Shown piece after piece: positions 13,237-25,987 of a stretch of DNA of 64,000 nt (its first letter is position 1; each line of letters begins with the position of its first letter). The notes below the pieces were generated by a model, which was not told the origin of the DNA, did no database searches, and saw nothing but the letters and a program-made list of their open reading frames with translations. This DNA comes from an uncultured virus (IMG/VR IMGVR_UViG_3300022841_000001) (lineage: Duplodnaviria; Heunggongvirae; Uroviricota; Caudoviricetes; Crassvirales): IMG/VR virus record IMGVR_UViG_3300022841_000001. One strand, 5' to 3'. The position numbers and the translations under genes are program-made.

Positions 13237-13263
13237 AATCGCTCTTTTTAGCACAGTTTTTAG

Positions 13264-13288: not shown

Positions 13289-13310
13289 GTCTTCATTTTT
13301 TTAGTTCAGC

Positions 13311-15119: not shown

Positions 15120-15503
15120 TTATTTTAATTTCAATTTATAAGATGCATACTTCAAAAGTACCTCATCCCTTTTCTTTTTTAGATTCTTAATATGCTTATC
15201 ATTTTTTCTAGTATTGACTTCAGTCTTAATACTATCCTCGATAAGATTTAGCTTGTGCAGGCAGTTTTCTATAGAAATAAACAAACAACCTTTTCGCCAT
15301 CCGTTCCTGCAGAATATATTATACTCCTCATCACTACACTCTTTGTAATACATACCTCCTTTGTTGGTATTTAAGATCTCAATACGGTCTCTGAATTTTT
15401 GAATTTTAATACCCATACCTATAACGCTATGCGATTTATCATCCTTCGAGTGTGTTTTATTTAAAGCTATTGCCTCATTAAAAACATCATCTAAAGTACG
15501 CAT
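15120..15503 (-). CDS. Hypothetical protein
   Basis: ORF in the operon. Confidence 0.7.
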   Translation of the reverse strand: MRTLDDVFNEAIALNKTHSKDDKSHSVIGMGIKIQKFRDRIEILNTNKGGMYYKECSDEEYNIFCRNGWRKGCLFISIENCLHKLNLIEDSIKTEVNTRKNDKHIKNLKKKRDEVLLKYASYKLKLK

Positions 15504-15504
15504 A

Positions 15505-15798
15505 TTATTCGTTGGTTATTTCTTGAACCAACCTCTTGTAGTCCGAATCAGAATCAATCATTTTCTTTGCTTTGTTATACCCATACTTTATAGTAGTACG
15601 GTAAACTTTTAATCCATTGTCCAGCATAAATTGTGATATGTGGCTTATTTTAATTGGTCTTTCTACACATAAGTAGTATAAGAAATATCTTGCATCCACT
15701 ACATTTTCGTGATTGTCTTTGGTGTACATCTCTTCAAGTGTAATTGAGAATTTTATCGATACGGCTTTTGCGTATTTTTCGAATATGCTTCTTTTCAT
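15505..15798 (-). CDS. DnaA C-terminal (domain IV)-like HTH protein
   Basis: VSIKFSITLEEM...VVDARYFLYYL...ISHISQF...RTTIKYGYNK matches the DnaA_C pattern. Confidence 0.75.
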   Translation of the reverse strand: MKRSIFEKYAKAVSIKFSITLEEMYTKDNHENVVDARYFLYYLCVERPIKISHISQFMLDNGLKVYRTTIKYGYNKAKKMIDSDSDYKRLVQEITNE

Positions 15799-15914
15799 TA
15801 TGTTATATATTTAGTCTTATTTGTATCCAGTGTACTACTCATTGTCCATTCAGGTATGCCTCCACTGGGAGTTGTTACCCATTGATTTTGCCAGTCCTCT
15901 CTTGAAATTGTCAT
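15798..15914 (-). CDS. 38-aa hypothetical protein (start MTISRED)
   Basis: ATG at 15914 with an A-rich leader, downstream of the terminator; TAATG coupling to the next gene. Confidence 0.5.
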   Translation of the reverse strand: MTISREDWQNQWVTTPSGGIPEWTMSSTLDTNKTKYIT

Positions 15915-15935
15915 TGTATTATTGATTTGTATCAC

Positions 15936-15962
15936 AAAAACCCCCACACTTTCGTATGGAGG
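15936..15962 (-). terminator. Intrinsic terminator or attenuator
   Basis: CCTCCATAC-GAAA-GTGTGGGGG-TTTTT: 9-bp stem with two G-U pairs, GNRA loop and U tract. Confidence 0.8.
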
Positions 15963-15969
15963 CGGTTGC

Positions 15970-15992
15970 TTGAGAATCAACTACAATTCAAC
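15970..15992 (-). ncRNA. Candidate antisense seed hairpin in a 3' UTR, complementary to the early-gene initiation motif
   Basis: GAAUU-GUAGUU-GAUUC hairpin; AAUUGUAGUUGAUU is complementary to AAUYAACUACAAU upstream of several early start codons. Confidence 0.45.
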
Positions 15993-16154
15993 TTATATTC
16001 CTAGTGGATATTCATCCTCGTCCTCTTCTTCACTGGTAGTTGTATCCTGAGTTGAGTTACTATTACTTTGCTCATTCAGGTCTATGCTCATTGCTTGAAG
16101 AGCCTTGTTTGCTGGGTTGAGTCCTATGAAAAACTCCTTTAAATTGTCGTGCAT
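15993..16154 (-). CDS. 53-aa acidic protein (not in ORF track)
   Basis: MHDNLKEFFIGLNPANKALQAMSIDLNEQSNSNSTQDTTTSEEEDEDEYPLGI directly downstream of a promoter. Confidence 0.6.
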   Translation of the reverse strand: MHDNLKEFFIGLNPANKALQAMSIDLNEQSNSNSTQDTTTSEEEDEDEYPLGI

Positions 16155-16186
16155 AATTTAGTTAAAATTTGATTATATTTCGTTCA

Positions 16187-16216
16187 CAAATATAGTATAA
16201 AATATACATAATACAA
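16187..16216 (-). promoter_or_regulatory. Bacteroidota sigma70-type promoter (middle/replication genes)
   Basis: TTG-N19-TATATTTG, matching the -33/-7 consensus TTG...TAnnTTTG. Confidence 0.8.
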
Positions 16217-16224
16217 GTATAACT

Positions 16225-16812
16225 CTATGAATTTATTTTATTAATAGCATCAACTAGCTCTTGAAGATGTCCTTTGGATGCATACTTATGCTCCTCTCGA
16301 ATCTGCTCAAGCTCTTCTTTTTCACACCCTTCATAGTTATATGATAGGTTTTCCATCCAGTTACTCACATCGCTTTCGTAGTAGTATTCGTGTGCCGTCA
16401 TTTCTCTATGTAAAACAATGCCTTTGTGACCAATAGAAACAAATCCTGCAAAATCCATACCTGATTCTTCATACTCCATTTCTGCAGTCAGTTTGTATTT
16501 CTTACAAATTGCCTCTATTAGTTTTATTGGTGGCGACCAAGCCGAATCTCCTGAGACAATCATATCCTCGTCCCTGAAATAATCTCTTTCGTGAATCTCA
16601 AAATCCCACCACTTCGTGCCATAGTCGTATGGCTCAGCCAACCTGACTGAAGCAAGCCAAGCCTTATTATCAATCTCTGACAAGTCCAGAACAAAATCTC
16701 CAAACTCTGTAAAATAATTGACGTCATCATACTTGTCAAATTTATCTTGTAACTTTCTTAGCGATTCGTTGCTCCCATCGAAGCACACGTAATTATAACA
16801 ATTGTTTGCCAT
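16225..16812 (-). CDS. DUF1281/YubB ferredoxin-like protein
   Basis: MANxCYN, YGTKW, DSAWSPP and YEESGMDFAG motifs. Confidence 0.75.
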   Translation of the reverse strand: MANNCYNYVCFDGSNESLRKLQDKFDKYDDVNYFTEFGDFVLDLSEIDNKAWLASVRLAEPYDYGTKWWDFEIHERDYFRDEDMIVSGDSAWSPPIKLIEAICKKYKLTAEMEYEESGMDFAGFVSIGHKGIVLHREMTAHEYYYESDVSNWMENLSYNYEGCEKEELEQIREEHKYASKGHLQELVDAINKINS

Positions 16813-16813
16813 C

Positions 16814-17275
16814 TTATTTGTTTTTAGTAACTATTAATTCAATCTCTTTATCTCTAATAACTAACCTATTTCCCTCCTCTAGCTCGTCTAAGGAATCTTT
16901 TATATCATCATAACTGTGACAGTCTTTAATAAAATAGAAGTCCATCAGGTACTCTATTGTATCGTATATGTCTAAATCTTCTTCAGTGTTCGTGTATGAC
17001 TTGTTTGCTATGTGTTCACCAGTCTGTTTGAATTTGACATCAAACGTTTCCTCGGTGCTTTTAAGTTCCATTAAGTTTTCTGAAATGTCACGTATTGCAA
17101 ACCAAACTGCATCCATTGTGCTTTCGCAGGTTAAAGCAACGTGTAAAATGCTTTCTGCCTGCTCCTTGGTACATTTGTAATTATCCTGCACATCTTTGAG
17201 ATGCCATAAACCCTCAACATAGTACCCTTTGCTTTCTAAAAATTTCTTTGCACTTTCTTCTGTAATTTCACTCAT
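16814..17275 (-). CDS. Hypothetical early protein (acidic)
   Basis: Start preceded by AACTACA. Confidence 0.75.
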   Translation of the reverse strand: MSEITEESAKKFLESKGYYVEGLWHLKDVQDNYKCTKEQAESILHVALTCESTMDAVWFAIRDISENLMELKSTEETFDVKFKQTGEHIANKSYTNTEEDLDIYDTIEYLMDFYFIKDCHSYDDIKDSLDELEEGNRLVIRDKEIELIVTKNK

Positions 17276-17307
17276 TGTAGTTAATTTAAATTATTGACTT
17301 ATTGTCG

Positions 17308-17348
17308 TGGATAGGGAGGAATCGAACCTCCCAAGCACCTTGCTACCC
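17308..17348 (-). ncRNA. Mini tRNA-like element 1 (acceptor stem plus T-arm, no anticodon arm)
   Basis: GGGTAG-CAAGGTGCTTG-GGAGG-TTCGATT-CCTCC-CTATCC-A. Confidence 0.8.
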
Positions 17349-17349
17349 T

Positions 17350-17541
17350 TTACTTTCTAGCTTTTGCTAGTGACCTATTGACTAAAGCAATCAAGTCATA
17401 CAAGTGATGTTTCTCATCACTTCCTATTCGCTGACTCCAAGAGAGCATACCTTTAAGGTCGTGTCTCAATTCATTCAGGTCGCCAACAATCATCTTCATA
17501 GTTCTATTGGTCTTATCTAACTCCGCCTTCACGTCCTGCAT
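17350..17541 (-). CDS. Hypothetical early protein
   Basis: Packed ORF. Confidence 0.65.
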   Translation of the reverse strand: MQDVKAELDKTNRTMKMIVGDLNELRHDLKGMLSWSQRIGSDEKHHLYDLIALVNRSLAKARK

Positions 17542-17544
17542 ACC

Positions 17545-17811
17545 TTAAGAATTTAGGTGGTTATTGTTTACTATGTAAATCTCAGTCTCTACGCTCTGCG
17601 TTGATGAGTTCCATTCCTGAATAATCAGGTCGTAGTTCAGGTGCTTTGCATTGCAGGAAACTAGCAGGTCGTTCAGTTCATCCATTTCAGTTAGACGGAA
17701 ACTTCTATCTGTTGGTATCCTATCTCTTACTCCTCTCCTATCGTCACAACGAAATTCGTAGTAAACCTTGTTACTTGATATTAACTCTAAAATACTTCTT
17801 GGTGTTGCCAT
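17545..17811 (-). CDS. Hypothetical early protein
   Basis: Packed ORF. Confidence 0.7.
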   Translation of the reverse strand: MATPRSILELISSNKVYYEFRCDDRRGVRDRIPTDRSFRLTEMDELNDLLVSCNAKHLNYDLIIQEWNSSTQSVETEIYIVNNNHLNS

Positions 17812-17813
17812 AA

Positions 17814-17930
17814 TTATCTGTTTTTTAACTCTGTTTGTAATTGGTCTACTAGCTCCCTAGCGACATCTAACTCCTTCGGCTCTAAATGAAATCCATTTAG
17901 TAATTGCGTTATTATTTGTAAATCTTTCAT
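17814..17930 (-). CDS. 38-aa hypothetical protein (start MKDLQII)
   Basis: ATG at 17930 follows the upstream stop; the longer track ORF overlaps its neighbour. Confidence 0.55.
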   Translation of the reverse strand: MKDLQIITQLLNGFHLEPKELDVARELVDQLQTELKNR

Positions 17931-17934
17931 AGTT

Positions 17935-18312
17935 TTATCCGTATATAACTTCGCCAAAAATAACACACTGCAATACGCAGTCTGCATCAAAAGCATCGTC
18001 TCGTTCATTAATAATATTAAACAATGTATCCGGGTCGACTTTCGGGACTCCGGTAAGAACACTTTCTAAAACTATTTTAGTGAAATCATCATCACCAGCC
18101 TCCTCGTCCACAAAAGACAATGAATTACCGTCAAGCAGGATTTGCATCAGGACATCTTCATAACACCCATCCATCACTTTATCTTTAGCTGATTTGTAGT
18201 CTTCCATTTCGTACACTAGTCCTATACCGTAATAATGCATCTGAGACAGTCCATTGCATAATGAAGTGTGAAATACTCCTAAAATTTCTTCTCTTGTTAA
18301 TTTGATTTCCAT
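17935..18312 (-). CDS. Hypothetical early protein
   Basis: C-terminal DAFDADCVLQCVIFGEVIYG pattern recognised from phage early proteins. Confidence 0.75.
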   Translation of the reverse strand: MEIKLTREEILGVFHTSLCNGLSQMHYYGIGLVYEMEDYKSAKDKVMDGCYEDVLMQILLDGNSLSFVDEEAGDDDFTKIVLESVLTGVPKVDPDTLFNIINERDDAFDADCVLQCVIFGEVIYG

Positions 18313-18319
18313 AATTTAT

Positions 18320-18727
18320 TTATAAGTGTGTTAAACATTGATTGCAAAACGAAAAATCGTCTTGGTTATGCGTGTTAATACTTCCACATTTGTGGCATTT
18401 GTGACCCTCTTCCATAGAGACATCACAGTAGTAATCTCTGTTGATTATCTCGATAGCTAGATGCTCGATATAAATATCACTCATACTCTGTTCCGTCTCT
18501 AGCCAAATGTCACCATCTCGCTCAAGTAAGAATCTCTGAATAATATTATCCTCGTTTATCTCTGTAGCTATTTCCTCTATAGCTTCAGTAGACTGGATGT
18601 TGTCCAAGGGCATTGTTTGGCTAGGCATTCTTACCCTTGTGCGCTCCCAAGCTCTTGCACTATGTATCAAAATGATGTTGTAAATTTCTCTATCAAAATA
18701 CAACCGTGTTTCTAAATCTATTTCCAT
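18320..18727 (-). CDS. Hypothetical protein with C-terminal Zn ribbon
   Basis: CHKC...CNQC. Confidence 0.7.
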   Translation of the reverse strand: MEIDLETRLYFDREIYNIILIHSARAWERTRVRMPSQTMPLDNIQSTEAIEEIATEINEDNIIQRFLLERDGDIWLETEQSMSDIYIEHLAIEIINRDYYCDVSMEEGHKCHKCGSINTHNQDDFSFCNQCLTHL

Positions 18728-18729
18728 AT

Positions 18730-18960
18730 CTAATTGTGTTTATTTTCCTGAGCATACTCATATAACGCATCCATAAAAGAGTCTTCTAGTAAGTCCATAT
18801 AGAATCTAGTAATATCCATTCCATCCAGCATAACACTGGTCACCTCTAATTCATCTTCAGGAGGTGCAAATCTGTCCTCGTCATTCCATTCGTAATCGTA
18901 TTCAATGATTAACTCGTATCCAAACGGCTCTCCTACTGTGTAAATTCCTTTTGTCTTCAT
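18730..18960 (-). CDS. Small acidic early protein
   Basis: Packed ORF, very acidic. Confidence 0.7.
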   Translation of the reverse strand: MKTKGIYTVGEPFGYELIIEYDYEWNDEDRFAPPEDELEVTSVMLDGMDITRFYMDLLEDSFMDALYEYAQENKHN

Positions 18961-18971
18961 ATCTATCTTTT

Positions 18972-19205
18972 TTAATGGTTAAACATATCTTCCCAGCCAT
19001 CTACTCCTTGTGATACTCCTCCAGCTCTGCTGGGGAATTCTCTTTGAATATAGTCTGTCACATAATACTCTTGGTCTGTAAATGACTCACTTAAATCTGT
19101 GCAGTACTCATCAGCATCTTCTCTTGTTGAAAATCCATCCTGATTCATCTCACCTTGTCCGTGGTTATTGACCCACATTACCTTGTACATTGTTGTTCTC
19201 TTCAT
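18972..19205 (-). CDS. Small acidic early protein
   Basis: Start preceded by AATCAACTACA. Confidence 0.7.
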   Translation of the reverse strand: MKRTTMYKVMWVNNHGQGEMNQDGFSTREDADEYCTDLSESFTDQEYYVTDYIQREFPSRAGGVSQGVDGWEDMFNH

Positions 19206-19242
19206 TGTAGTTGATTTTAATCTCTGCCAAAATCGGCATTGT

Positions 19243-19283
19243 TGCTGGAGGAGGAATCGAACCTCTTTACATCCAATCCAGCA
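19243..19283 (-). ncRNA. Mini tRNA-like element 2
   Basis: (T)GCTGGA-TTGGATGTAA-AGAGG-TTCGATT-CCTCC-TCCAGC-A. Confidence 0.8.
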
Positions 19284-19291
19284 TTGGGTAT

Positions 19292-19789
19292 TTACCCACC
19301 ATAATTACTATCTATCCAGTCACACAATATGTTCCTATTGTTATCGTCCAGCTCCATAAATAACTTGAAGAAGTTAAGTGTTCCACCAAAACTATTACTG
19401 GCGTTTAGACTCGTCCATTTAGAAGTTATGTGACCAGTCATATGCTCATTGTTTGACCAAACTTTCTGTATCCAGTCGTGAGGAAAATTGTTGGCGAAGT
19501 ACATAAATTTAATGATGTTGGAATTGCCTACAAAAACTGGCTCAACAACCTCAATCTCTTCAGACTCCCATTCTGTCCATAGGTATTCTTCGTTATTATA
19601 AGACTCATTTAGTAGGAATTCATCCGACAAAACCTCATCACCTTTTGATGTTATTTGTCTAGACTTAATCCATTGTATCAAGTCTGCTTCATATTTAAAT
19701 ATCTCGCCATCTTCACAAAGATATCCTTCAAAAATTCCTGCTCCAGTTGCGCTACACGTTCTTGGAAATACTACGTTTTGTTTTGTCAT
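19292..19789 (-). CDS. Hypothetical early protein
   Basis: 165-aa ORF, apparently two domains. Confidence 0.75.
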   Translation of the reverse strand: MTKQNVVFPRTCSATGAGIFEGYLCEDGEIFKYEADLIQWIKSRQITSKGDEVLSDEFLLNESYNNEEYLWTEWESEEIEVVEPVFVGNSNIIKFMYFANNFPHDWIQKVWSNNEHMTGHITSKWTSLNASNSFGGTLNFFKLFMELDDNNRNILCDWIDSNYGG

Positions 19790-19794
19790 AATTT

Positions 19795-19908
19795 CTATCT
19801 GTTTACTACGTTATAATTTGATGCTTTTGATGAACACTGGAAGCTTCCACAACTTGAAAACATTACCAATATAATTAACACTACTACTACTTTTAATTGT
19901 CTACTCAT
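19795..19908 (-). CDS. 37-aa lipoprotein (not in ORF track)
   Basis: MSRQLKVVVVLIILVMFSS|CGSFQCSSKASNYNVVNR: basic N-region, hydrophobic core, lipobox FSSC. Confidence 0.65.
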   Translation of the reverse strand: MSRQLKVVVVLIILVMFSSCGSFQCSSKASNYNVVNR

Positions 19909-19924
19909 TTTATCTATTTTTAAA

Positions 19925-20257
19925 TTAATATGCTGATGTTGCTCTTTTTTGAATGTTTTCAAATGTATCGTCCTCGTCTCTGTAATCCCTAGTTAAATTG
20001 TGGTAATACTTCATCAACTCTTTACCTATAGAGTCTAGCTCACCGAATCTGTCCACATACTGTAGTTGTAGCATTACATTAGATTCTTGAGACCTAATGG
20101 TATCATTCACCTGAATAGCTCCCATCATTCCACCACCTAAGTAGTTTTGATATGCCGACATTTTGTGACCCTTGAATCCTATTGATGTTAAACTAATTTC
20201 AACACCTCCACCTCTAGTTGAGGTTTCTTTTCTTACTGTCATTTTCTTAAAGTTCAT
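19925..20257 (-). CDS. Hypothetical early protein
   Basis: Start preceded by AACTACA; immediately downstream of hammerhead 1. Confidence 0.75.
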   Translation of the reverse strand: MNFKKMTVRKETSTRGGGVEISLTSIGFKGHKMSAYQNYLGGGMMGAIQVNDTIRSQESNVMLQLQYVDRFGELDSIGKELMKYYHNLTRDYRDEDDTFENIQKRATSAY

Positions 20258-20273
20258 TGTAGTTATAATTTAA

Positions 20274-20326
20274 GTTAATAACCACCATTGCTGGTGGTTT
20301 TCATCCTTCAGGAATCATCAGTTAAC
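20274..20326 (-). ncRNA. Type I hammerhead ribozyme 1
   Basis: GUUAA-CUGAUGA-UUCC UGAA GGAU-GAAA-ACCACCA GCAA UGGUGGU-UA-UUAAC; predicted cut after UUA, between 20279 and 20278. Confidence 0.9.
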
Positions 20327-20444
20327 CACTTACTGTTATTGTACCATTGGCGTAATGACTACATATTAATCCAGTTGGTAGTACTACCACCTTTACTTGT
20401 TTTGATTTAAAAATCGACTTTACTTTTCTTGCTATTAGTTTCAT
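20322..20444 (-). CDS. 40-aa basic protein (not in ORF track)
   Basis: MKLIARKVKSIFKSKQVKVVVLPTGLICSHYANGTITVSG; its stop codon lies in ribozyme stem I. Confidence 0.55.
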   Translation of the reverse strand: MKLIARKVKSIFKSKQVKVVVLPTGLICSHYANGTITVSG

Positions 20445-20445
20445 A

Positions 20446-21126
20446 TTATTCTAGTGTTTCTAATCTTTCGTTAACTTCTTTTAATGTGTATGTTTTTTCG
20501 CTATCTACGTAGTCTCTAAACTCTTCGATATAGCCTTCACTTATGTCTTGCCTCAGTTCGTAGTCGTCTTTATACTCAGACAGATACTCGTGAATTATTC
20601 CTTCAGAATGGTCGCCATATTTGAACAACTTAGCATCCGTGTATCCTCCTCTAGCATCTGCACCATTGTGTATCTGAATAAGAATATACTCCTCATCATT
20701 TATGGTTAGGTTAGAACCCTGAAGTATCTGAGACAAATCACTGTCACCGTTATAAGTGTTCCAGACTCTCTGCTCAATAACATCATTCTCAAAGGAGTTA
20801 ATGTGGTCAAATGCATTCCTGCTCACTCCGTAAGATTCACAGTCAGAATTCCAATCATCAGACTCTTCCTGAATCTCGTTAAACTCATCGCATAAATCAT
20901 CCAGCTGGAGGTTATTGGTTAGGTAATGAAACACAGATACTGTCCTCATTATATCACCTCTTTCCCAGTCGAATTCATAAACCTCCATTTCTTCATTGTT
21001 AAAATCCTCAATGGTCTTCTTTTGGTTTCTTTGCCAGCCTCTGCCTTCAGAAAATCCACTGTCACCCATCGCTTTACCAGTATTTTCGGTAAGCATTCCG
21101 TAAACTAATTTTTGTACTTGATTCAT
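20446..21126 (-). CDS. Hypothetical early protein (acidic)
   Basis: MLTENTG...DSG...RGWQRNQ, NTYNGDSDLSQILQ and QIHNGADARGGYTD segments. Confidence 0.8.
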   Translation of the reverse strand: MNQVQKLVYGMLTENTGKAMGDSGFSEGRGWQRNQKKTIEDFNNEEMEVYEFDWERGDIMRTVSVFHYLTNNLQLDDLCDEFNEIQEESDDWNSDCESYGVSRNAFDHINSFENDVIEQRVWNTYNGDSDLSQILQGSNLTINDEEYILIQIHNGADARGGYTDAKLFKYGDHSEGIIHEYLSEYKDDYELRQDISEGYIEEFRDYVDSEKTYTLKEVNERLETLE

Positions 21127-21147
21127 AATTGTAGTTAATTTAATTTA

Positions 21148-21200
21148 AGTTAATAGCCATTCGAAAATGGCTTTCATCCTTCAGGAATCGTCAGTTAACT
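21148..21200 (-). ncRNA. Type I hammerhead ribozyme 2
   Basis: AGUUAA-CUGACGA-UUCC UGAA GGAU-GAAA-GCCAUU UUCG AAUGGC-UA-UUAACU; predicted cut after CUA, between 21154 and 21153. Confidence 0.9.
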
Positions 21201-21405
21201 ATATTTTAAAGGTTAATACCTCGTTTATGTCATCAATTTCATTCTGAGTGAACAATATGAAATCAGAACCTATAGCCTGCTGGATGCAGTTTAGGTAAGC
21301 TCTTTTTAATTCATTTTCTGTAGGGTAATACTCATTCAGAACCTCATCTTCCTTCCATCTTTCAAACATCTTAGTGTTTGCATCTAATAATTCTTTAAAA
21401 GTCAT
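21199..21405 (-). CDS. Hypothetical early protein
   Basis: ATG at 21405; stop overlaps hammerhead 2 stem I. Confidence 0.65.
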   Translation of the reverse strand: MTFKELLDANTKMFERWKEDEVLNEYYPTENELKRAYLNCIQQAIGSDFILFTQNEIDDINEVLTFKI

Positions 21406-21426
21406 AATCAATAATTTAAGTTAATA

Positions 21427-21660
21427 TTATATTCTTGGTACAAAGTGTTCGTCTTTAGACATCAGCCCAACAAAATCGTGCATCACGTCATCCTGAGAAA
21501 ATAAAGATTCATCATCAAATAGCCTTTCAGCCCATTCAGGATTGTCCATTATAAGTATTGCACAAACGCCTTCCCTCGTTAATCGCTGGATGTCTGCAAA
21601 GTGGTCTAGTATCCCATCAGGAATAAGATTGTAAAGTAATTCTTCTTTTAATTCATTCAT
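21427..21660 (-). CDS. Small acidic early protein
   Basis: Start preceded by AACTACAATT. Confidence 0.7.
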   Translation of the reverse strand: MNELKEELLYNLIPDGILDHFADIQRLTREGVCAILIMDNPEWAERLFDDESLFSQDDVMHDFVGLMSKDEHFVPRI

Positions 21661-21673
21661 AATTGTAGTTGTT

Positions 21674-21940
21674 TTAGTATAATTCAGAGTTTTCGATTAA
21701 TTTAACTTGGTATGCTGGTAGCTCATTGCAGTAATCTTGATACTTATCAAACGAGTCTTCACATTTCTTGTTTATCCTGCGCCATTCACTGGTCTCATTC
21801 TCCTGCTGACCCTCAATCTCATCACGCAGTATGTTGAACGCATTATACTTCTCCAGCCACTGGATGGCTCTATTTAAATTTACCTGATTCTTCTTTGCTT
21901 TAGCTATCATCTTAGTTGTTTTTATGTGATTCATATGCAA
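21674..21940 (-). CDS. Hypothetical early protein (start uncertain)
   Basis: Packed ORF. Confidence 0.65.
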   Translation of the reverse strand: MHMNHIKTTKMIAKAKKNQVNLNRAIQWLEKYNAFNILRDEIEGQQENETSEWRRINKKCEDSFDKYQDYCNELPAYQVKLIENSELY

Positions 21941-22169
21941 TCATATCGTAAGCTGGTGAGTAATACTTCACGGTGCCATTGATGGAATTAATCTTTTCTA
22001 TTTTTGCCTCCAGCTCTATCTTTTTTCGGTAATCACTGTGCAGTATCTTGCTTGCATCTTCCGTAGTATAGATGATTGCTGACACTAGATTTGATATCAA
22101 ATCACTGCCGTTATAATACGTTAATTTGTCCTCCGTTAATACGTTCATTACTGTTGCTGATGTCTTCAT
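21912..22169 (-). CDS. Hypothetical early protein
   Basis: Packed ORF. Confidence 0.65.
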   Translation of the reverse strand: MKTSATVMNVLTEDKLTYYNGSDLISNLVSAIIYTTEDASKILHSDYRKKIELEAKIEKINSINGTVKYYSPAYDMIAYESHKNN

Positions 22170-22171
22170 AA

Positions 22172-22426
22172 TTATCTTAGTTTATTAATTAATATTCCCT
22201 CTAATCCTATTGCTACTAACGTGAATACAGTTATCATCTGAATTTTCGTCCATACACTGTTGTAAATTTGGTCTACAGTCATATAGCTCTCACTGTGTAT
22301 CTGAATGTCCAGCAACAATAGATTGTCTATCTCTATTATTCTACTGTATAAATCAAATCCTAACACAAATCCTGATACTATAAATACTCCTAACCCAATC
22401 GCAATCACTATTCCTAAAATTCTCAT
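22172..22426 (-). CDS. Early membrane protein (2 TM)
   Basis: Hydrophobic N- and C-terminal segments. Confidence 0.7.
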   Translation of the reverse strand: MRILGIVIAIGLGVFIVSGFVLGFDLYSRIIEIDNLLLLDIQIHSESYMTVDQIYNSVWTKIQMITVFTLVAIGLEGILINKLR

Positions 22427-22458
22427 ATCAATCTATTTTTAATTATTGTTACTATTAG

Positions 22459-22498
22459 TAAGAGTGCAGGAATCGAACCTGCATTAACCATTACTCTT
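22459..22498 (-). ncRNA. Mini tRNA-like element 3
   Basis: AAGAGT-AATGGTTAAT-GCAGG-TTCGATT-CCTGC-ACTCTT-A. Confidence 0.85.
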
Positions 22499-22509
22499 GG
22501 AAATTCATA

Positions 22510-22920
22510 CTACTTGATATAATCCTCCAGCTCCTTCCAGTCAGCTTGTGCATCTACCTTTCTTTCCTGCTCACGTACATCATCAATCAACTTCCCAACA
22601 GCTCGAACAATGTCAGTAGCACAAGATGATGAAGACATAACTGGATTACCAGCTACAGTAGTTACCCTGAGTGACCAAGTCGAGTCACCATATCGCATCA
22701 TATCAAGCGCATTCTTCTCGCTATTCTTTGTGAATTGCATAATGTATTTGTCACTGGTGATTATTACTTTCCACATTGCCTTTGTTCCCTGATTGTCTGT
22801 GGTCTCTATCACTGCTCCATCACATAGCATTCTATATGCTAGCTTTACATAGTCATATTCCATTTGGGTCATCTTTGATGCATTGAATTTCGGCATTACT
22901 ACTTTGATTGTGTTTCTCAT
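22510..22920 (-). CDS. Hypothetical early protein
   Basis: 136-aa ATG ORF. Confidence 0.75.
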   Translation of the reverse strand: MRNTIKVVMPKFNASKMTQMEYDYVKLAYRMLCDGAVIETTDNQGTKAMWKVIITSDKYIMQFTKNSEKNALDMMRYGDSTWSLRVTTVAGNPVMSSSSCATDIVRAVGKLIDDVREQERKVDAQADWKELEDYIK

Positions 22921-22922
22921 AA

Positions 22923-23027
22923 TTATTGGTTTCTTTTGTTATCGGTTAAAGTTATTATTATTAGTACTATTAAGGTGATAAATATCACTGGTATCATAAT
23001 GTTGGTAAACGTGTTAAGCATAATCAT
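22923..23027 (-). CDS. 34-aa single-TM peptide, probable first early gene (not in ORF track)
   Basis: MIMLNTFTNIMIPVIFITLIVLIIITLTDNKRNQ with an A/T-rich leader. Confidence 0.55.
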   Translation of the reverse strand: MIMLNTFTNIMIPVIFITLIVLIIITLTDNKRNQ

Positions 23028-23041
23028 AGTTATTAAATTAG

Positions 23042-23090
23042 TCACCAGTGTAGGTATTGCTCCTATAAAATGCTCACTGCATCACTGGTG
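23042..23090 (-). ncRNA. Three-way-junction, tRNA-like element 4
   Basis: CACCAGTG-[ATGC AGTGA GCAT]-TTTA-[TAGG AGCAATA CCTA]-CACTGGTG-A. Confidence 0.55.
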
Positions 23091-23520
23091 TTCTGTTCTC
23101 GCTATTCGGGGAGTCTTTATACTTTACCCAAGCAAAATTCATACATTACTTCAAAGCCCATTTAATCAAATCCGCTACTAGATGATTAAGATTCATTAAC
23201 CCCATCTACAGATGGTTAAACACTTGGTTATCGTGAAGGAGACCATTAGAAAGGCATTACCGTGACTGGCTTTAATCCTAATGGCTGACAGTGTTTTATG
23301 CTTTGATATCACTGTACTATATGGATTGACTTACTAAAGACGCTTGGTCTACACTACTTCGCTTGATAGATATGGATAGAGATACAATCCCGCATTTAAG
23401 CAGTTGGCTGATTGTGAGCAGGTTAAGAAGATATAGTTAAACCCTTACTTGAAGTAAGGTGATGTAACTGCCTGATTCTCAGTAGTTTAAGTCAATATGT
23501 CAATGAACTGGCGCCTAAGC
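23091..23520 (-). ncRNA. Long structured non-coding leader of the early transcript
   Basis: No credible ORF; nested complementary segments ATTGACTTA/TAAGTCAAT, GCAGTT/AACTGC, CCTTACT/AGTAAGG, AAACACT/AGTGTTT and CCATTAG/CTAATGG. Confidence 0.5.
23493..23508 (-). promoter_or_regulatory. boxA-like antitermination motif
   Basis: GTTCATTGACATATTG about 17 nt downstream of the putative early promoter; resembles rrn boxA. Confidence 0.55.
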
Positions 23521-23525
23521 GAGTA

Positions 23526-23533
23526 CAATTATA
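23526..23533 (-). promoter_or_regulatory. Putative early promoter -7 element
   Basis: cgTATAATTG (one mismatch to TAnnTTTG) just upstream of the boxA-like motif; no clear -33 element. Confidence 0.4.
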
Positions 23534-23910
23534 CGAAATATAAATCATTAATGAGCATAAAATGTGTATAATTATTGCATAATAATTGTATAATCACTGC
23601 TGGCAAGCAAATATTCCAAGCTACATAGTAATTTAATACACAGAACATACTCTAAGACTCCACCAGTTAACAAAGCAATATTGTCTAATTACGGGGTTAA
23701 TGCCTATGATACATTACGATACAAAGCTTTCGATGGGGTTTTAGGCAGAACCTCTGTTCTTGCCATTTATTAGACTTTCTTTCCTTTTGCCTTGGAATAG
23801 CCCAGTTATGATGACTCAGCCCAGCACAATCGCAGGTATTGCCTTCTTTATAATTGATACACCAGCATATCGGCTGGACAATATAGTATTAATGATAAAA
23901 CCAGCATATA

Positions 23911-24023
23911 ATCAACATAACCAACATAACCAACATGGAATCCTGCAGCAATCGACATGCATAACCAACATAAAGTCAACACAAATCCCGAAAAAATCAA
24001 CACAAAATGTCGAAAATCAACAC
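23911..24023. repeat. Cluster of CAACA(T/C) iteron-like repeats
   Basis: CAACATAAC tandem units with a 9-bp period, plus several TCAACAC copies. Confidence 0.7.
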
Positions 24024-24228
24024 AAAACAGACTAAAAACATCGGTTTTCTTTCGAGCAAGGTCGATCGTATAACCCCCTATAGCCCTCAACTTCTTTGTA
24101 TATTGACTTAAAAAAATTTTTTTTGCCTAAAAATGTTAATAATCAACACAACTATGGTGATTTCTAAAAATAATCAACACAACTTATCTATTTGATTATC
24201 AGTACTTTAGAGATACTATTTACTATTA

Positions 24229-24343
24229 ATGTTAATTATGTTGATTTTTCCTCGTAAAAAAAATAAAAAAAATAATATATTACACTATTCCTATACAGTA
24301 AAAACTATTTAAAAAAAGTGAAAAAAACCAACATTTTCAACAT
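24229..24343. other. Putative replication origin element B
   Basis: Same inverted-arm architecture and span as 13123-13236; preceded by an IHF-consensus site at 24197-24209. Confidence 0.5.
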
Positions 24344-24367
24344 TACTACTTTTCAATAATAAATTCT

Positions 24368-24375
24368 TATCTTTG
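24368..24375 (+). promoter_or_regulatory. Promoter -7 element for groEL
   Basis: TATCTTTG 25 nt before the ATG. Confidence 0.7.
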
Positions 24376-24400
24376 TTTAAATTAAATTAAATAGAATAAT

Positions 24401-25987
24401 ATGAGTAATTACATTCCAAAGAACCTTGATTTTGACAGTGCTGGAAGGGACAAATTAATTCAGGGTATTACAAAGATTTCCAAGGCTGTAAAAAGCACGC
24501 TTGGGCCGAGAGGAAAAACTGTATTAATTGAGTCCACGGATCATCTTGGTGGGATTGTTATTACTAAGGATGGTGTTACTGTGGCCAACTCTATTTTTTT
24601 GAATGACCCTATTGAAAATTTAGCTGTTCAGATGCTGAAGGATGCTGCTCGCAAGACGGCTAATACTGCAGGTGATGGAACGACTACTGCTATTGTTTTG
24701 ACTGAGGCTATTGTTTTGGCTGGTCAGGAATTTTTAGATTCTGGGAGTAATGTTTCGGAGGTTGTTAAGTTCATAAATGATTATAGTGAGTTTGTGGTTG
24801 ATGTTTTGACTGAGAATTCAAAAGCAATTAGTGACTCTATGTTACATGACGTTGCTACTATTTCATCAAACAATGACCATGAGCTGGGTGGTATCATTTC
24901 TGATGCTTACAAGAAAGTTGGAAAGAATGGTATTGTAACTATTGAGCGATCTCAAAACCATGAGACATATGCAACGGTAACTGAGGGTATAAAAATAGAC
25001 AGGGGTTACACTTCTAATTTATTTATTACCAACCAGAAAAACGATGAATGTGTTCTGGAGGATGTTCATATTTTAGTGTGTGACCAGGAGATAAGTAACC
25101 TACTACAATTGGAGCCTTTATTAAAACCATTGATGGCGAAAAACAAGAAGCTTTTGATAATCGGGCCTTGCTCGGTAAATGTTGTACAGACTTTGGCTTT
25201 AAATGTTGTTCGTCAAGGATTCAAGATGTGTAATATAATGCCACCTCAGTTTGGTTACAAGCAGCATGAATTAATGCAAGACATTGCTATGTCTGTTGGC
25301 GCCAAGTATTTCTCTGAAAAGACCGGTGATGATTTGAGTCACATATCTATTGATGACTTAGGGCATGCTGACAAGATCATTTGTGGAAAAAGTCAAACGG
25401 TTGTTGTGAAAGGAAAAGAGGTTACACCTGAAATATCTACAAGGATTGAAGAGTTGAAGGAGCAGCAAAGAAATACGACTATCACTGCTGACCGTGAATT
25501 TATAAACGAGCGTATCGCAAGTCTATCTGGATCAATTGGATCTATATTTGTTGGGGCTAATTCTGACATTGAGCAGAAAGAAAAGTACGACAGAGTCGAG
25601 GATGCTGTTTGTGCGGTAAGATCTGCATTGGAAGAAGGAATTGTAAAAGGTGGAGGAGTTGCTCTTATGGAGTCATCGATTAAACTTGATGGAATTCCAG
25701 TCCCAGAAAACCAAGACCAGATGGTCGCATTGAATATTTTAAAGAATGCTTGCTTAGAGCCTATTGCTCAGATAATTAAAAACGCAGGTAAGGATTTTGT
25801 TGAGGTTTACTCTACTGCTAACGGAAAAGGTTATGATGTAAAGGCAGAGGTTTACGGAGATATGTTTGAGATGGGAATTATTGATCCCTTGAAGGTAACA
25901 AAAAATGCATTTAAAAATGCGGTGAGTGTTGCAACGACTATCCTAACCACAAACGCGATTATTACACACGCGCGCGCGAGAGATTAA
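24401..25987 (+). CDS. groEL: Phage-encoded chaperonin GroEL (Cpn60)
   Basis: STLGPRG, ITKDGVTVA, AGDGTTTA, DRGY, EEGIVxGGG and GIIDPLKVT motifs. Confidence 0.97.
   Translation: MSNYIPKNLDFDSAGRDKLIQGITKISKAVKSTLGPRGKTVLIESTDHLGGIVITKDGVTVANSIFLNDPIENLAVQMLKDAARKTANTAGDGTTTAIVLTEAIVLAGQEFLDSGSNVSEVVKFINDYSEFVVDVLTENSKAISDSMLHDVATISSNNDHELGGIISDAYKKVGKNGIVTIERSQNHETYATVTEGIKIDRGYTSNLFITNQKNDECVLEDVHILVCDQEISNLLQLEPLLKPLMAKNKKLLIIGPCSVNVVQTLALNVVRQGFKMCNIMPPQFGYKQHELMQDIAMSVGAKYFSEKTGDDLSHISIDDLGHADKIICGKSQTVVVKGKEVTPEISTRIEELKEQQRNTTITADREFINERIASLSGSIGSIFVGANSDIEQKEKYDRVEDAVCAVRSALEEGIVKGGGVALMESSIKLDGIPVPENQDQMVALNILKNACLEPIAQIIKNAGKDFVEVYSTANGKGYDVKAEVYGDMFEMGIIDPLKVTKNAFKNAVSVATTILTTNAIITHARARD

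What the first reader, a model, noticed from the sequence alone, without database searches (positions are those of the whole stretch)
17308..22498. Three ~40-nt anticodon-less mini-tRNAs with compensatory stem changes
Elements at 17308-17348, 19243-19283 and 22459-22498 share one fold: a 6-bp acceptor-like stem, a 10-11 nt linker containing GG like a D-loop (CAAGGTGCTTG, TTGGATGTAA, AATGGTTAAT), a 5-bp T-stem (one mismatch in element 2) with the loop TTCGATT, the 3' acceptor strand and a discriminator A. The acceptor stems differ completely (GGGTAG/CTATCC, GCTGGA/TCCAGC, AAGAGT/ACTCTT) yet all pair, so structure rather than sequence is conserved. They have no anticodon arm and no encoded CCA after the discriminator. 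Inference: they keep the acceptor/T-arm half and elbow of tRNA and act as RNase P/RNase Z cut signals. If excised, they could instead be decoys for tRNA-targeting defence toxins or uncharged-tRNA sensors.
Basis: partly seen in the sequence, partly recalled or inferred. Interest (0 to 1): 0.88.

Follow-up and report, generated by a model that had tools for sequence, protein, structure and literature searches.

The report
Mini tRNA look-alikes punctuating phage operon
Three 40-base "half-tRNAs" sit between early genes of a marine flavobacterial phage, in the same kind of slot that self-cutting hammerhead RNAs fill in neighbouring gaps, so they most likely tell the host's tRNA-trimming enzymes where to cut the phage's long messenger RNA.

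Summary
Three ~40-nt elements on the minus strand (17308-17348, 19243-19282, 22459-22498) each have a 6-bp acceptor-like stem, a 10-11-nt GG linker, a 5-bp T-stem with loop TTCGATT and a discriminator A. ARAGORN and Rfam call no tRNA.

They form a conserved family: 27 covariance-model matches in related GroEL-encoding flavobacterial podophages, all on the early-gene strand. 98.6% of cells pair, and 10 of 11 pairs change on both sides. E3 has a metagenomic homologue with two doubly changed acceptor pairs.

Each element starts 1-17 nt after a stop codon and ends 23-37 nt before the next ATG.

New here: the other gaps of the same operon hold type-I hammerhead ribozymes. These pass Rfam's threshold in two relatives but are degenerate in this window. 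In one relative the hammerhead cut site and the mini-tRNA 3' end align within about 2 nt on a shared leader.

Best reading (about 0.6): RNA punctuation signals cut by host RNase Z and RNase P, like plant-mitochondrial t-elements. Cleavage itself is inferred, because no RNA data could be had.

I found nothing in print on this in phages. Earlier notes of this scan report the same theme in other phages.

The parts
17308..17348 (-). Mini tRNA-like element E1: 6-bp acceptor stem (one G.U), 11-nt linker with GG that is itself a 4-bp/3-nt mini-hairpin, 5-bp T-stem, loop TTCGATT, discriminator A
   Evidence: 57.4 bits. Homologues in L009, L011, L012, L059-L062 and L081 have acceptor pairs 2 and 3 and T-stem pairs 3 and 4 changed on both sides.
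19243..19282 (-). Mini tRNA-like element E2: 6-bp acceptor stem (a 7th T-A pair is possible with 19283), 10-nt GG linker, T-stem with one A.C, loop TTCGATT, discriminator A
   Evidence: 42.6 bits. Homologues in L009-L013, L059-L061, L080 and L081 have acceptor pair 1 as G-C, A-U or G.U.
22459..22498 (-). Mini tRNA-like element E3: 6-bp A/U-rich acceptor stem, 10-nt GG linker, T-stem GCAGG/CCTGC, loop TTCGATT, discriminator A
   Evidence: Rfam tRNA 18.5 bits; 32.8 bits. The homologue L088:2925-2964 has 2 acceptor pairs changed on both sides and one G.U.
17276..17307 (-). 32-nt A/U-rich leader between the E1 3' end and the ATG of ORF 16814-17275; starts with a 3-bp GAC/GTC hairpin and ends in the shared motif AATTTAAATTAACTACA
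19206..19242 (-). 37-nt leader between the E2 3' end and the ATG of ORF 18972-19205; contains a small hairpin (about 19225-19238) whose sequence differs but still pairs in relatives
22427..22458 (-). 32-nt leader between the E3 3' end and the ATG of ORF 22172-22426
21148..21200 (-). Hammerhead-like type-I cassette A: stem I, CUGACGA, short stem II with U.U at 10.1/11.1, GAAA, 7-bp stem III, U16.1, A17, stem I; the predicted cut after 21154 lies 27 nt before the ATG of ORF 20446-21126
   Evidence: No Rfam hammerhead match.
20273..20327 (-). Hammerhead-like type-I cassette B: same core, with a stem III of different sequence that still pairs; the predicted cut after 20279 lies 21 nt before the ATG of ORF 19925-20257
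   Evidence: No Rfam hammerhead match.
17350..17541 (-). Upstream ORF (63 aa) whose stop codon ends 1 nt before E1
19292..19789 (-). Upstream ORF (165 aa) whose stop codon ends 9 nt before E2
22510..22920 (-). Upstream ORF (136 aa) whose stop codon ends 11 nt before E3

Best explanation
The three elements are RNA-level punctuation marks in the long early transcript of a flavobacterial podophage. Each folds into the 'top half' of a tRNA: the acceptor stem stacked on the T-arm, with a short GG-containing loop standing in for the D-loop at the elbow. That is the part of a tRNA that the host's tRNA-processing endonucleases recognise. RNase Z (or an equivalent 3' endonuclease) would cut just after the discriminator A. 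This would give the downstream mRNA a short, unstructured A/U-rich leader of 23-37 nt. RNase P would cut at the 5' end of the acceptor stem, 1-17 nt after the upstream stop codon, and so release the upstream mRNA. In the other gaps of the same operon the same job is done by type-I hammerhead ribozymes. Shown: the fold, its conservation with compensatory changes, the tRNA hallmarks, the fixed position, and the equivalence of slot and leader with hammerheads. Inferred: that cleavage occurs, which enzymes do it, and what the phage gains (defined leaders, independent mRNA stability, structured 3' ends on the upstream mRNAs).
For: (1) Structure conserved rather than sequence. 27 matches to model R1 in 1.2 Mb of related phage DNA, all on the strand of the flanking ORFs. 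14 distinct sequences, 98.6% of cells paired, 10 of 11 pairs changed on both sides, slid controls 38-60%. E3's homologue adds 2 more doubly changed pairs. My descriptor gives 30 hits in 20 of 77 sources on the sense strand, 0 on the other strand, and 0-3 in each of 20 shuffles.
(2) tRNA hallmarks. The closing pair G...C and the loop TTCGANT are invariant in all members. GG is present in the linker in 17 of 17. A 7th acceptor pair is possible in 8 of 17, and an encoded A-CCA follows in 3 of 17 (L070, L072 twice). Rfam's tRNA model aligns E3 with the two middle arms deleted.
(3) Sense-strand wobble. There are 4 G.U against 1 A.C among the distinct sequences.
(4) Slot. Elements start 1-17 nt after a stop codon. 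Their 3' end lies 32-37 nt (window clade) or exactly 23 nt (L043, L044, L072) before the next ATG.
(5) Equivalence with ribozymes. 21 type-I hammerheads on the same strand of the same blocks, against 0-1 in shuffles. Two reach Rfam's gathering score. Hammerhead cut-to-ATG distances are mostly 20-35 nt. In L072 the leaders after 2 hammerheads and 3 mini-tRNAs are homologous, and the scissile bond aligns within about 2 nt of the discriminator/CCA.
(6) A real tRNA-Met in L066 ends about 20 nt before an ATG, in the same slot.
(7) A reduction series at one orthologous site: L044 is cloverleaf-like with a tetraloop in place of the anticodon loop, L043 has a 14-nt linker, and L045/L046 are a continuous 11-12-bp minihelix.
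(8) Precedent. Plant-mitochondrial t-elements, found through the same GGTTCRANYCC motif, direct RNase Z and RNase P cuts that make mRNA ends (PMC1920247, passages read). Clustered hammerheads were proposed to cut phage transcripts into gene-length mRNAs (PMC3088659, passages read).
Against: No cleavage product, small RNA or transcript end has been seen. The acceptor stem is 6 bp in E1 and E3, so the coaxial stack is 11 bp rather than the 12 bp of a tRNA. [quoted passage not shown] The base before the acceptor stem is not conserved (A, T, C). Single-sequence folding energies do not stand out (z -1.5 to -2.1), and the minimum-energy folds of E2 and E3 differ from the proposed fold. No downstream-ORF family is preceded by a hammerhead in some phages and a mini-tRNA in others: 0 of 7 multi-member clusters are mixed, so direct swapping at one site is not shown. 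The window's own two hammerhead-like cassettes have U.U at 10.1/11.1 and get no Rfam match, so they may be inactive. The close relative MW202828.1 (30-60.85 kb searched) and Flavobacterium phage elemoA (1-34.5 kb searched) have neither element, so the elements are dispensable. The A-CCA in L072 may simply be inherited from the shared leader. The covariation counts rest on an alignment fitted to the model and include paralogues.
Confidence: 0.6

Rival explanations
1. The excised ~40-nt minihelix is the product that matters: a stable small RNA, CCA-tailed after excision, that acts in trans. It could be a decoy or sponge for host factors that read the acceptor end or elbow of tRNAs (defence toxins acting on tRNA 3' ends, uncharged-tRNA sensors, modification enzymes).
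For: The full elbow (invariant T-loop plus GG in 17 of 17 linkers) is more than a bare minihelix would need. Three relatives encode A-CCA. Window E1 has a G.U at pair 3 with discriminator A. Defence systems that act on tRNA acceptor ends exist (10.1101/2024.07.05.602228 and PMC12851939, search listing and abstracts only). This reading is compatible with processing, since excision needs the same cuts.
Against: Acceptor sequences differ freely between copies and phages, which argues against mimicry of one particular tRNA. The G3.U of E1 is A-U in all 8 homologues. Hammerheads, which release no tRNA-like RNA, fill the same slot. The linker can be 0 to 32 nt long at one orthologous site. No small-RNA data exist.
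Confidence: 0.12
2. The elements are uncleaved cis-acting structures of the mRNA: a translation or stability element for the downstream gene, or a 3' protective structure for the upstream one. They would use tRNA mimicry to bind a ribosomal or other factor rather than to be cut.
For: Fixed distance to the ATG within clades (23, or 32-37 nt). The element and leader are duplicated as one cassette. The ATGs have no Shine-Dalgarno sequence, so initiation depends on leader context.
Against: Hammerheads, whose known activity is cleavage, have the same spacing and leader. A genuine tRNA occupies the slot in L066. The spacing differs between clades (23 to 48 nt).
Confidence: 0.1
3. They are decaying remnants of phage tRNA genes (internal deletions) with no present function.
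For: Cultured relatives carry large tRNA arrays (Panino, phi38:1, Gundel_1). The L044, L043, L045 series looks like progressive reduction. E1 has a weak alternative match as a longer tRNA-Sec-like fold reaching into the upstream ORF (21.7 bits, E=1).
Against: Both helices keep pairing through changes on both sides across phages whose flanking proteins have diverged. The T-loop is invariant. The position relative to stop and start codons is fixed. The family has paralogous copies within genomes, each with its own leader.
Confidence: 0.05
4. They act as DNA or transcription signals: hairpin promoters for a phage or virion RNA polymerase, terminators, or recombination sites.
For: The phage has crAss-like features (muzzle-protein domain, BT4734-type primase) and a giant ORF of at least 2,097 aa of unknown function. 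The crAss-like phage phi14:2 uses a virion RNA polymerase that prefers single-stranded templates, and its early promoters are unknown (bioRxiv 10.1101/2020.03.07.982082, passages read). A fixed distance to the ATG would suit a promoter.
Against: The giant ORF has no DFDxD motif and no Pfam hit. No sigma-70-like promoter or terminator-like site coincides with an element, and no T-run follows them. G.U outnumbers A.C in the sense orientation. The T-loop, the GG linker and the A-CCA have no role in such a model. Hammerheads in the equivalent slot are RNA devices. No integrase was seen among the ORFs scanned.
Confidence: 0.06

Closest known systems
t-elements of plant mitochondria (Forner et al. 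2007, PMC1920247; abstract and passages read)
   Same: tRNA-like structures inside mRNA precursors, recognised by the conserved T-arm motif GGTTCRANYCC. Their ends coincide with mRNA 5' ends (RNase Z) and 3' ends (RNase P). They are excised and given non-encoded C/A residues. Some lie directly after or inside the upstream reading frame.
   Different: t-elements are about 70-nt non-canonical cloverleaves in organelle genomes. The elements here are about 40 nt with no D or anticodon arm, lie in a phage of Flavobacteriia, occur as cassettes with a fixed leader, and alternate with hammerhead ribozymes. Processing has been shown for t-elements but not here.
Clustered hammerhead ribozymes flanking genes in prophages (Perreault et al. 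2011, PMC3088659; passages read)
   Same: Intergenic position in phage polycistronic transcripts, and the proposed role of cutting long transcripts into gene-length mRNAs. The relatives of this phage carry such type-I hammerheads in the same operon as the mini-tRNAs.
   Different: Hammerheads cut themselves; the mini-tRNAs would need host enzymes. I found no description of the two classes sharing one operon and one leader.
Acceptor-stem/T-arm minihelix model substrates of RNase P, and minihelix substrates of CCA-adding enzyme and RNase Z (recalled: McClain, Guerrier-Takada and Altman 1987 and later work; not read here)
   Same: A coaxial acceptor/T helix of 11-12 bp capped by a T-loop. L045/L046 are exactly such a continuous minihelix.
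   Different: Those are laboratory constructs, usually with 3' CCA. These are natural, mostly lack CCA, and carry a GG linker.
tRNA-like domain of tmRNA (recalled)
   Same: Acceptor stem plus T-arm plus a D-loop analogue without a D-stem or anticodon arm.
   Different: There is no mRNA-like domain and no pseudoknots. The G3.U70 alanine identity pair is present only in window E1 and not in its homologues. ARAGORN calls no tmRNA.
mascRNA / MEN-beta tRNA-like modules of MALAT1 and NEAT1 (PMC8457004; search listing and abstract only)
   Same: A tRNA-like fold within a long transcript that recruits RNase P and RNase Z to make the ends of the flanking RNA.
   Different: Those are eukaryotic, full cloverleaf-like structures with a poorly conserved anticodon loop, and occur as single copies.
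YrlA-type bacterial and phage Y RNAs with a tRNA-like domain (PMC4201824; passages read)
   Same: T-arm, D-type contacts and an acceptor-like stem in a non-tRNA. The M. smegmatis YrlA is cut by RNase P and receives CCA.
   Different: Y RNAs are 100 nt or longer, carry a Ro60-binding helix and lie next to rsr. No such gene or module is present here.

Membership tests
tRNA (Rfam RF00005; ARAGORN) | Cloverleaf with D-arm and anticodon arm; score above the curated threshold | tested here: not met
   ARAGORN finds 0 genes in the window. Rfam gathering gives 0. The best match is E3 at 18.5 bits against a cut-off of 29, with both middle arms deleted.
tRNA (T-arm and acceptor half) | 5-bp T-stem closed by G-C, 7-nt loop of the form T-T-C-R-A-N-Y, acceptor stem stacked directly on it, unpaired discriminator (the numbering G53..C61 is recalled) | tested here: met
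   G, TTCGA, T and C are invariant in alignments A2 and A3. There are 0 nt between the T-stem and the acceptor 3' strand in all three window elements. The discriminator is A in all three.
tRNA (acceptor end) | 7-bp acceptor stem and 3' CCA (encoded or added) | tested here: inconclusive
   6 bp in E1 and E3; 7 are possible in E2. 8 of 17 family members can form a 7th pair, and 3 of 17 encode A-CCA. Addition of CCA cannot be tested here.
Plant-mitochondrial t-elements | GGTTCRANYCC T-arm motif inside an mRNA precursor, within a tRNA-like fold | tested here: met
   GGTTCGATTCC in all three, between co-directional ORFs. Motif definition from PMC1920247.
Plant-mitochondrial t-elements | Element ends coincide with mapped mRNA termini; excised RNA carries non-encoded C/A | not testable with these tools
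   No RNA run was listed for this sequence.
Hammerhead ribozyme type I (RF00163): the window's two cassettes | Core CUGANGA ... GAAA, A15.1-U16.1, H17, three stems | tested here: met
   Both cassettes show all core letters, a stem III that differs in sequence but pairs, and a 6-bp stem I.
Hammerhead ribozyme type I (RF00163): the window's two cassettes | Paired 10.1-11.1 next to the core (a rejection criterion in PMC3088659) and a score above Rfam's cut-off | tested here: not met
   U.U at 10.1/11.1. No hammerhead match even at E<=10 on 1 kb. Relatives L009:8064-8113 and L011:7931-7980 do pass (35.9 bits against 34). Of the 11 descriptor hits in the 8 loci scanned, 2 passed.
tmRNA | tRNA-like domain with G3.U70, plus an mRNA-like tag reading frame | tested here: not met
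   ARAGORN finds no tmRNA. The element is 40 nt with no room for a tag. G3.U occurs only in window E1.
Intrinsic terminator | G+C-rich hairpin followed by a run of T | tested here: not met
   None of the 6 terminator-like sites in 15500-24500 overlaps an element. The 3' flanks are CGACAA, ACAATG and CTAATA.
Sigma-70-type promoter | -35 and -10 hexamers with 16-18 nt spacing upstream of the gene | tested here: not met
   None of the 37 promoter-like sites (40.0 expected from shuffles) lies at an element or its leader. Flavobacterial or phage-specific promoter types are not covered by that scan.

The most novel reading that the evidence does not exclude
Flavobacterial podophages build their early operons from interchangeable RNA 'cut here' cassettes: self-cleaving hammerheads and minimal tRNA mimics that borrow host RNase P and RNase Z, each fused to a standard leader. 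In addition, the excised ~40-nt minihelices, once CCA-tailed, accumulate as a second product that soaks up host factors or defence enzymes acting on tRNA acceptor ends. One element would then both process the mRNA and protect the host tRNA pool for the phage.
Probability: 0.1. Interest if true: 0.9.

Novelty: new variant of a known kind. Interest (0 to 1): 0.72.

Why it matters
tRNA-like processing signals inside mRNAs are established for plant mitochondria and for a few eukaryotic long non-coding RNAs. Bacterial RNase P is known to cut a handful of non-tRNA substrates. A conserved, covarying family of minimal (about 40 nt) tRNA mimics, used repeatedly as operon punctuation in phages and sitting side by side with hammerhead ribozymes on the same leader, would show three things. 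First, phages can recruit host tRNA-processing enzymes as a general tool for mRNA maturation. Second, it would define from natural sequences the smallest tRNA fragment these enzymes accept in vivo. Third, it would give the many orphan phage hammerheads a functional context. It is directly testable with in-vitro RNase P and RNase Z assays and with reporter constructs. It also matters for annotation: such elements are invisible to tRNA finders and to Rfam, and a relative of this kind is annotated as a 110-nt 'tRNA-Tyr' in a cultured phage.

Tried and rejected
- Standard detectors: ARAGORN and Rfam at gathering found nothing in the window.
- DNA similarity to 50,697 phage records: no match in near or distant mode.
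- The window's own assembly is not held. The nearest record, G001, covers only the late region.
- Relatives found through the 226-aa ORF 20446-21126 (6 loci) had no elements and almost no synteny of the small ORFs.
- RNA evidence: no RNA holder was listed for window:16000-24000.
- Virion-polymerase promoter idea: no DFDxD motif in the giant ORF and no Pfam family. The phi14:2 paper reports no common motif upstream of early transcripts.
- Sigma-70 promoter and terminator scans: nothing at the elements.
- Orthologous swap test: 0 of 7 multi-member downstream-ORF clusters mix hammerhead and mini-tRNA.
- E3 homologues: none through the upstream ORF or an exact 24-nt pattern in viral contigs; one was found in metagenome contigs. 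L089 is an unrelated high-GC contig and was dropped.
- Model R1 cannot span long linkers: L035, L043, L044 and L068 match only through the T-arm. They were handled with my own descriptor instead. Its hits in L005 and L067 look doubtful (weak T-stem), and I do not count them as members.
- Cultured relatives. Model R1 found no mini-element in elemoA 1-34.5 kb or MW202828.1 30-60.85 kb. In whole-record searches of five phages, phi19:3 had no match and Panino, phi38:1, Calle_1 and Gundel_1 had 17 matches between them. I examined the 8 that were returned as loci plus Panino 27957-27993. In the tRNA-array loci (L095, L098, L099, L100) and tmRNA loci (L096, L097) they lie among the genes ARAGORN calls there; I placed the Panino matches at 25842-25881 and 27957-27993 inside tRNA-His and tRNA-Val, and did not check the others base by base. 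The Gundel_1 match in L101 lies in the 110-nt tRNA-like feature. The match in L102 (Calle_1 49411-49427) has no ARAGORN gene and no descriptor hit, and I did not resolve it. The other 8 matches (3 in phi38:1, 3 in Calle_1, 1 in Panino, 1 in Gundel_1) were not examined.
- Literature: five searches found no description of anticodon-less tRNA mimics as phage operon punctuation. The term 'anticodon-less' in PMC13434031 refers to a nuclease product.
- Structure prediction and complex prediction were not used, because the feature is RNA.

Full report
**What is there**

- Each has a 6-bp acceptor-like stem and a linker of 11, 10 or 10 nt that contains GG.
- Each has a 5-bp T-stem, the loop TTCGATT, the 3' acceptor strand directly abutting the T-stem, and an unpaired A.
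- E1 has one G.U pair in the acceptor stem, and its linker is itself a 4-bp/3-nt mini-hairpin.
- E2 has one A.C in the T-stem and could form a 7th acceptor pair with T19283.
- None is followed by CCA.

The 11-mer GGTTCGATTCC occurs exactly three times in 64 kb, only here. With up to one mismatch there are 5 matches against 0.33 expected, and 0 of 100 shuffles reach 5. A structural scan of both strands finds no further convincing copy. ARAGORN finds no tRNA and Rfam gives nothing at gathering. At E<=10 the tRNA model aligns E3 end to end with the D and anticodon arms deleted (18.5 bits, cut-off 29). E1 gets a weak tRNA-Sec-type match that reaches into the upstream ORF (21.7 bits, E=1). Folding energies of the single sequences are not exceptional (z -1.5 to -2.1), and the minimum-energy folds of E2 and E3 differ from the proposed one. 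Single-sequence thermodynamics therefore does not carry the case.

**Context**

The window is a tailed phage. It encodes a helicase, a BT4734-type primase, Sak and an exonuclease, GroEL/GroES, terminase, portal, tail fibres and a Crassvirus muzzle-protein domain. G+C is about 35%. By terminase and portal, the nearest cultured relatives are Flavobacterium 'elemo' podophages, Maribacter phage Panino, and Cellulophaga and Tenacibaculum phages. The closest complete record is MW202828.1. The host is therefore a member of the Flavobacteriia. The start codons lack Shine-Dalgarno sequences.

The elements lie in a block of about 40 tightly packed minus-strand ORFs (6.3-23 kb). Each starts 1, 9 or 11 nt after a stop codon and ends 32, 37 or 32 nt before the next ATG.

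**Conservation**

- Loci around GroEL homologues (76 loci) carry clear homologues of E1 and E2.
- A covariance model built from six ungapped 41-nt members finds 27 matches at E<=1 in 83 sources (1.2 Mb). All 27 lie on the strand of the flanking ORFs.
- On the 14 distinct sequences, 98.6% of 141 cells pair, against 66.1 +/- 2.6% in shuffles.
- 10 of 11 pairs have changes on both sides (7 of 500 shuffles reach this). The covariation score is 0.79 against 0.22.
- Sliding the 3' partner by 1-3 columns gives 38-60% pairing.
- Caveats: the alignment is fitted to the model, and the set mixes orthologues and paralogues.
- E3 had no homologue in viral contigs. A metagenome contig whose upstream ORF is 81% identical carries one (L088:2925-2964). 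It has two acceptor pairs changed on both sides and one G-C changed to G.U, while the linker and loop are unchanged.
- An independent descriptor (T-loop TTCGANT, at most one T-stem mismatch, a perfect 6-bp acceptor stem, GG in a linker of 8-35 nt) gives 30 hits in 20 of 77 sources on the sense strand and none on the other strand. It gives 0-3 per shuffle over both strands.
- In five whole contigs of 56-63 kb, the model finds only copies in the early block.

**tRNA hallmarks**

The numbering used here is recalled.
- The pair closing the T-loop (G...C) and the loop letters TTCGA-T are invariant.
- All 17 tabulated members have GG in the linker, where a D-loop would contact the T-loop.
- 8 of 17 can form a 7th acceptor pair.
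- In L070 and L072 (twice) a 7-bp stem is followed by an encoded A-CCA.
- Wobble pairs appear in the sense orientation four times, against one A.C. This favours a structure in the transcript rather than in the opposite strand.

**The unexpected neighbour**

I listed every gap of the block and folded the larger ones. The two other gaps of 64-72 nt (upstream of ORFs 20446-21126 and 19925-20257) hold a second repeated cassette with the letters of a type-I hammerhead:
- stem I, whose 5' strand includes or abuts the upstream stop codon;
- CUGAYGA, a short stem II, and GAAA;
- a stem III of quite different sequence in the two copies that still pairs;
- U16.1, A17 and the return strand of stem I.

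After that comes the same A/U-rich leader motif found after the mini-tRNAs.

These two copies are not canonical. Positions 10.1/11.1 are U.U, and Rfam gives no hammerhead match even at E<=10 on 1 kb.

The relatives, however, carry textbook versions. A type-I descriptor finds 21 hits in the window plus loci, all on the same strand, against 0 or 1 in ten shuffles. Many have G10.1-C11.1 and a GUC triplet. L009:8064-8113 and L011:7931-7980 pass Rfam's curated threshold for Hammerhead_1 (35.9 bits against 34). Of the 11 descriptor hits in the eight loci scanned, these 2 passed.

**Positional equivalence**

I mapped 30 hammerheads and 33 mini-tRNA hits on the sense strand. The 33 include doubtful hits in L005 and L067, and L045/L046, which are better read as linker-less.
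- Both kinds begin at or just after the upstream stop codon.
- The hammerhead scissile bond lies mostly 20-35 nt before the next ATG.
- The 3' end of the mini-tRNAs lies 23 nt (L043, L044, L072) or 32-37 nt (window clade) before it. Some larger values in that table come from my ATG-only, 35-aa ORF caller.
- In L072, two hammerheads and three mini-tRNAs are followed by visibly homologous leaders. In the alignment anchored on the invariant leader and ATG, the scissile bond falls between columns 19 and 20, the mini-tRNA discriminator is at column 18, and the CCA is at columns 19-21.
- In L066 a genuine tRNA-Met (77.3 bits) ends about 20 nt before an ATG. A mini-tRNA and a further odd tRNA-like hairpin lie just upstream of it.
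- Upstream of one orthologous ORF there is a reduction series. L044 has a near-cloverleaf whose middle arm ends in a tetraloop (z -3.96). L043 has the same element without that arm. L045/L046 have a continuous 11-12-bp helix capped by the T-loop. The conserved core is therefore the acceptor/T-arm helix and T-loop; the middle is dispensable.

**Against equivalence**

No downstream-ORF family is preceded by a hammerhead in some phages and a mini-tRNA in others: 0 of 7 multi-member clusters are mixed.

**How it most likely works**

The top half of a tRNA is what RNase P, RNase Z and the CCA-adding enzyme recognise (established knowledge, recalled). Plant-mitochondrial t-elements were found through the same GGTTCRANYCC motif. 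They direct RNase Z to make mRNA 5' ends and RNase P to make 3' ends, and the excised element receives non-encoded C/A residues (PMC1920247, passages read). Perreault et al. proposed that clustered hammerheads cut long phage transcripts into gene-length mRNAs (PMC3088659, passages read).

The simplest reading is that this phage family punctuates its early transcript with two kinds of cut-here module, and that the mini-tRNAs are the kind that borrows host enzymes. The alignment with the hammerhead cut site points to the 3' boundary (an RNase Z-type cut after the discriminator) as the functionally important one, because it sets the downstream leader. The lack of CCA in the window's copies is compatible with this, since CCA is an anti-determinant for RNase Z (recalled). 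A 5' cut by RNase P would free the upstream mRNA and release a ~40-nt RNA.

All of this is inference. No RNA run was listed for the sequence.

**Rivals**

- A trans-acting excised minihelix (decoy or sponge) is compatible with processing but has no evidence of its own. The free variation of acceptor sequences and of linker length, and the hammerheads in the same slot, argue against it as the main role.
- An uncleaved translation or stability element would explain the fixed spacing, but not the equivalence with ribozymes and with a real tRNA.
- Dead tRNA remnants are contradicted by covariation and by the fixed position.
- A promoter for a virion polymerase was worth considering, because the phage has crAss-like traits and phi14:2's early promoters are unknown. 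However, the giant ORF has no DFDxD motif, no promoter or terminator consensus coincides with the elements, and the tRNA-specific features would go unexplained.

**Distribution**

- The elements are not universal. MW202828.1 (30-60.85 kb) and elemoA (1-34.5 kb) have neither element type.
- In whole-record searches of five cultured phages, phi19:3 had no match. Panino, phi38:1, Calle_1 and Gundel_1 gave 17 matches in all, of which I examined 9.
- In loci L095-L100 these lie in regions where ARAGORN calls arrays of genuine tRNAs or a tmRNA. The two Panino matches I placed exactly fall inside tRNA-His and tRNA-Val.
- The match in L102 (Calle_1 49411-49427) has no called gene and no descriptor hit, and I left it unresolved. 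The other 8 matches were not examined.
- Gundel_1 has a 110-nt non-canonical tRNA-like feature, annotated tRNA-Tyr. ARAGORN does not call it, and Rfam tRNA-Sec gives 28.7 bits against a cut-off of 47. It starts 9 nt after a stop codon and ends 30 nt before the SSB gene's ATG.

**Novelty**

Five full-text searches found no description of anticodon-less tRNA mimics as phage operon punctuation, nor of their alternation with hammerheads.

Earlier unchecked notes of this scan describe the same theme on other DNA. The closest is e1-6152435, a tRNA-like minihelix in a phage operon whose other genes are separated by hammerheads. I saw that note only after my own. It is not independent evidence.

I class the finding as a new variant of a known kind: tRNA-like processing signals.

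Noticed in passing
window 21148-21200 (-) and 20273-20327 (-): Two hammerhead-like type-I cassettes with a complete catalytic core and covarying stem III, but U.U at 10.1/11.1 and a UUA triplet. Rfam does not match them. They may be weak or dead ribozymes.
   Followed up: yes
L009:8064-8113, L011:7931-7980 and 19 further places: Canonical type-I hammerhead ribozymes in the early operons of related marine phages. Stem I often contains the stop codon of the upstream ORF.
   Followed up: yes
L054 about 4025-4165 (-): A tRNA-like RNA of about 140 nt: a 7-bp acceptor stem enclosing about 105 nt, a T-arm and an encoded A-CCA. It lies about 35 nt before an ATG and just downstream of a mini-tRNA (4173-4214). 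A third T-arm-like match lies at 1708-1726.
   Followed up: no
L066 1521-1815 (-): A tandem of an odd tRNA-like hairpin (about 1763-1815), a mini-tRNA with a 16-nt linker (1664-1709) and a genuine tRNA-Met (1521-1595) ahead of one ORF. The same contig also has a hammerhead at 6126-6177.
   Followed up: partly
NC_062747.1 68787-68896 (L104:488-597): Tenacibaculum phage Gundel_1 has a 110-nt feature annotated tRNA-Tyr. ARAGORN does not call it, and it contains two T-arms inside an 8-bp acceptor-like stem. It fills the stop-to-ATG slot before the SSB gene.
   Followed up: partly
window 13047-13310 (-): A 264-nt gap between the small-ORF block and the primase gene. It holds a strong G+C-rich hairpin followed by a U-run and a very stable fold (z -3.6). 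It is likely a terminator plus the start of a new transcription unit.
   Followed up: no
window 1-6297 (+): An ORF of at least 2,097 aa, open at the window start, with no Pfam family, one weak PHROG hit and no DFDxD motif. Its role (virion protein or polymerase) is unknown.
   Followed up: partly
window 17307-17382 (-): E1 can alternatively be read as the 3' part of a 76-nt tRNA-Sec-like fold that uses the end of ORF 17350-17541 (21.7 bits, E=1). It includes a perfect 5-bp hairpin inside the ORF. This may be a trace of a longer ancestral tRNA.
   Followed up: no
L095, L099, L100 (Panino, phi38:1): Genuine tRNAs in the arrays of cultured relatives lack encoded CCA and are mostly followed by discriminator + ACA or ACT. 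This resembles the 3' flanks of several mini-tRNAs (ACAA, TCAA, ACTA).
   Followed up: no
window 16814-17275 (-) compared with L011, L059 and others: In 8 relatives the E1-type element precedes an ORF of about 200 aa starting MANNCW. In the window an unrelated 153-aa ORF sits directly after E1, and an ORF starting MAN follows it (16225-16812). This suggests gene insertion right behind the element-plus-leader cassette.
   Followed up: no
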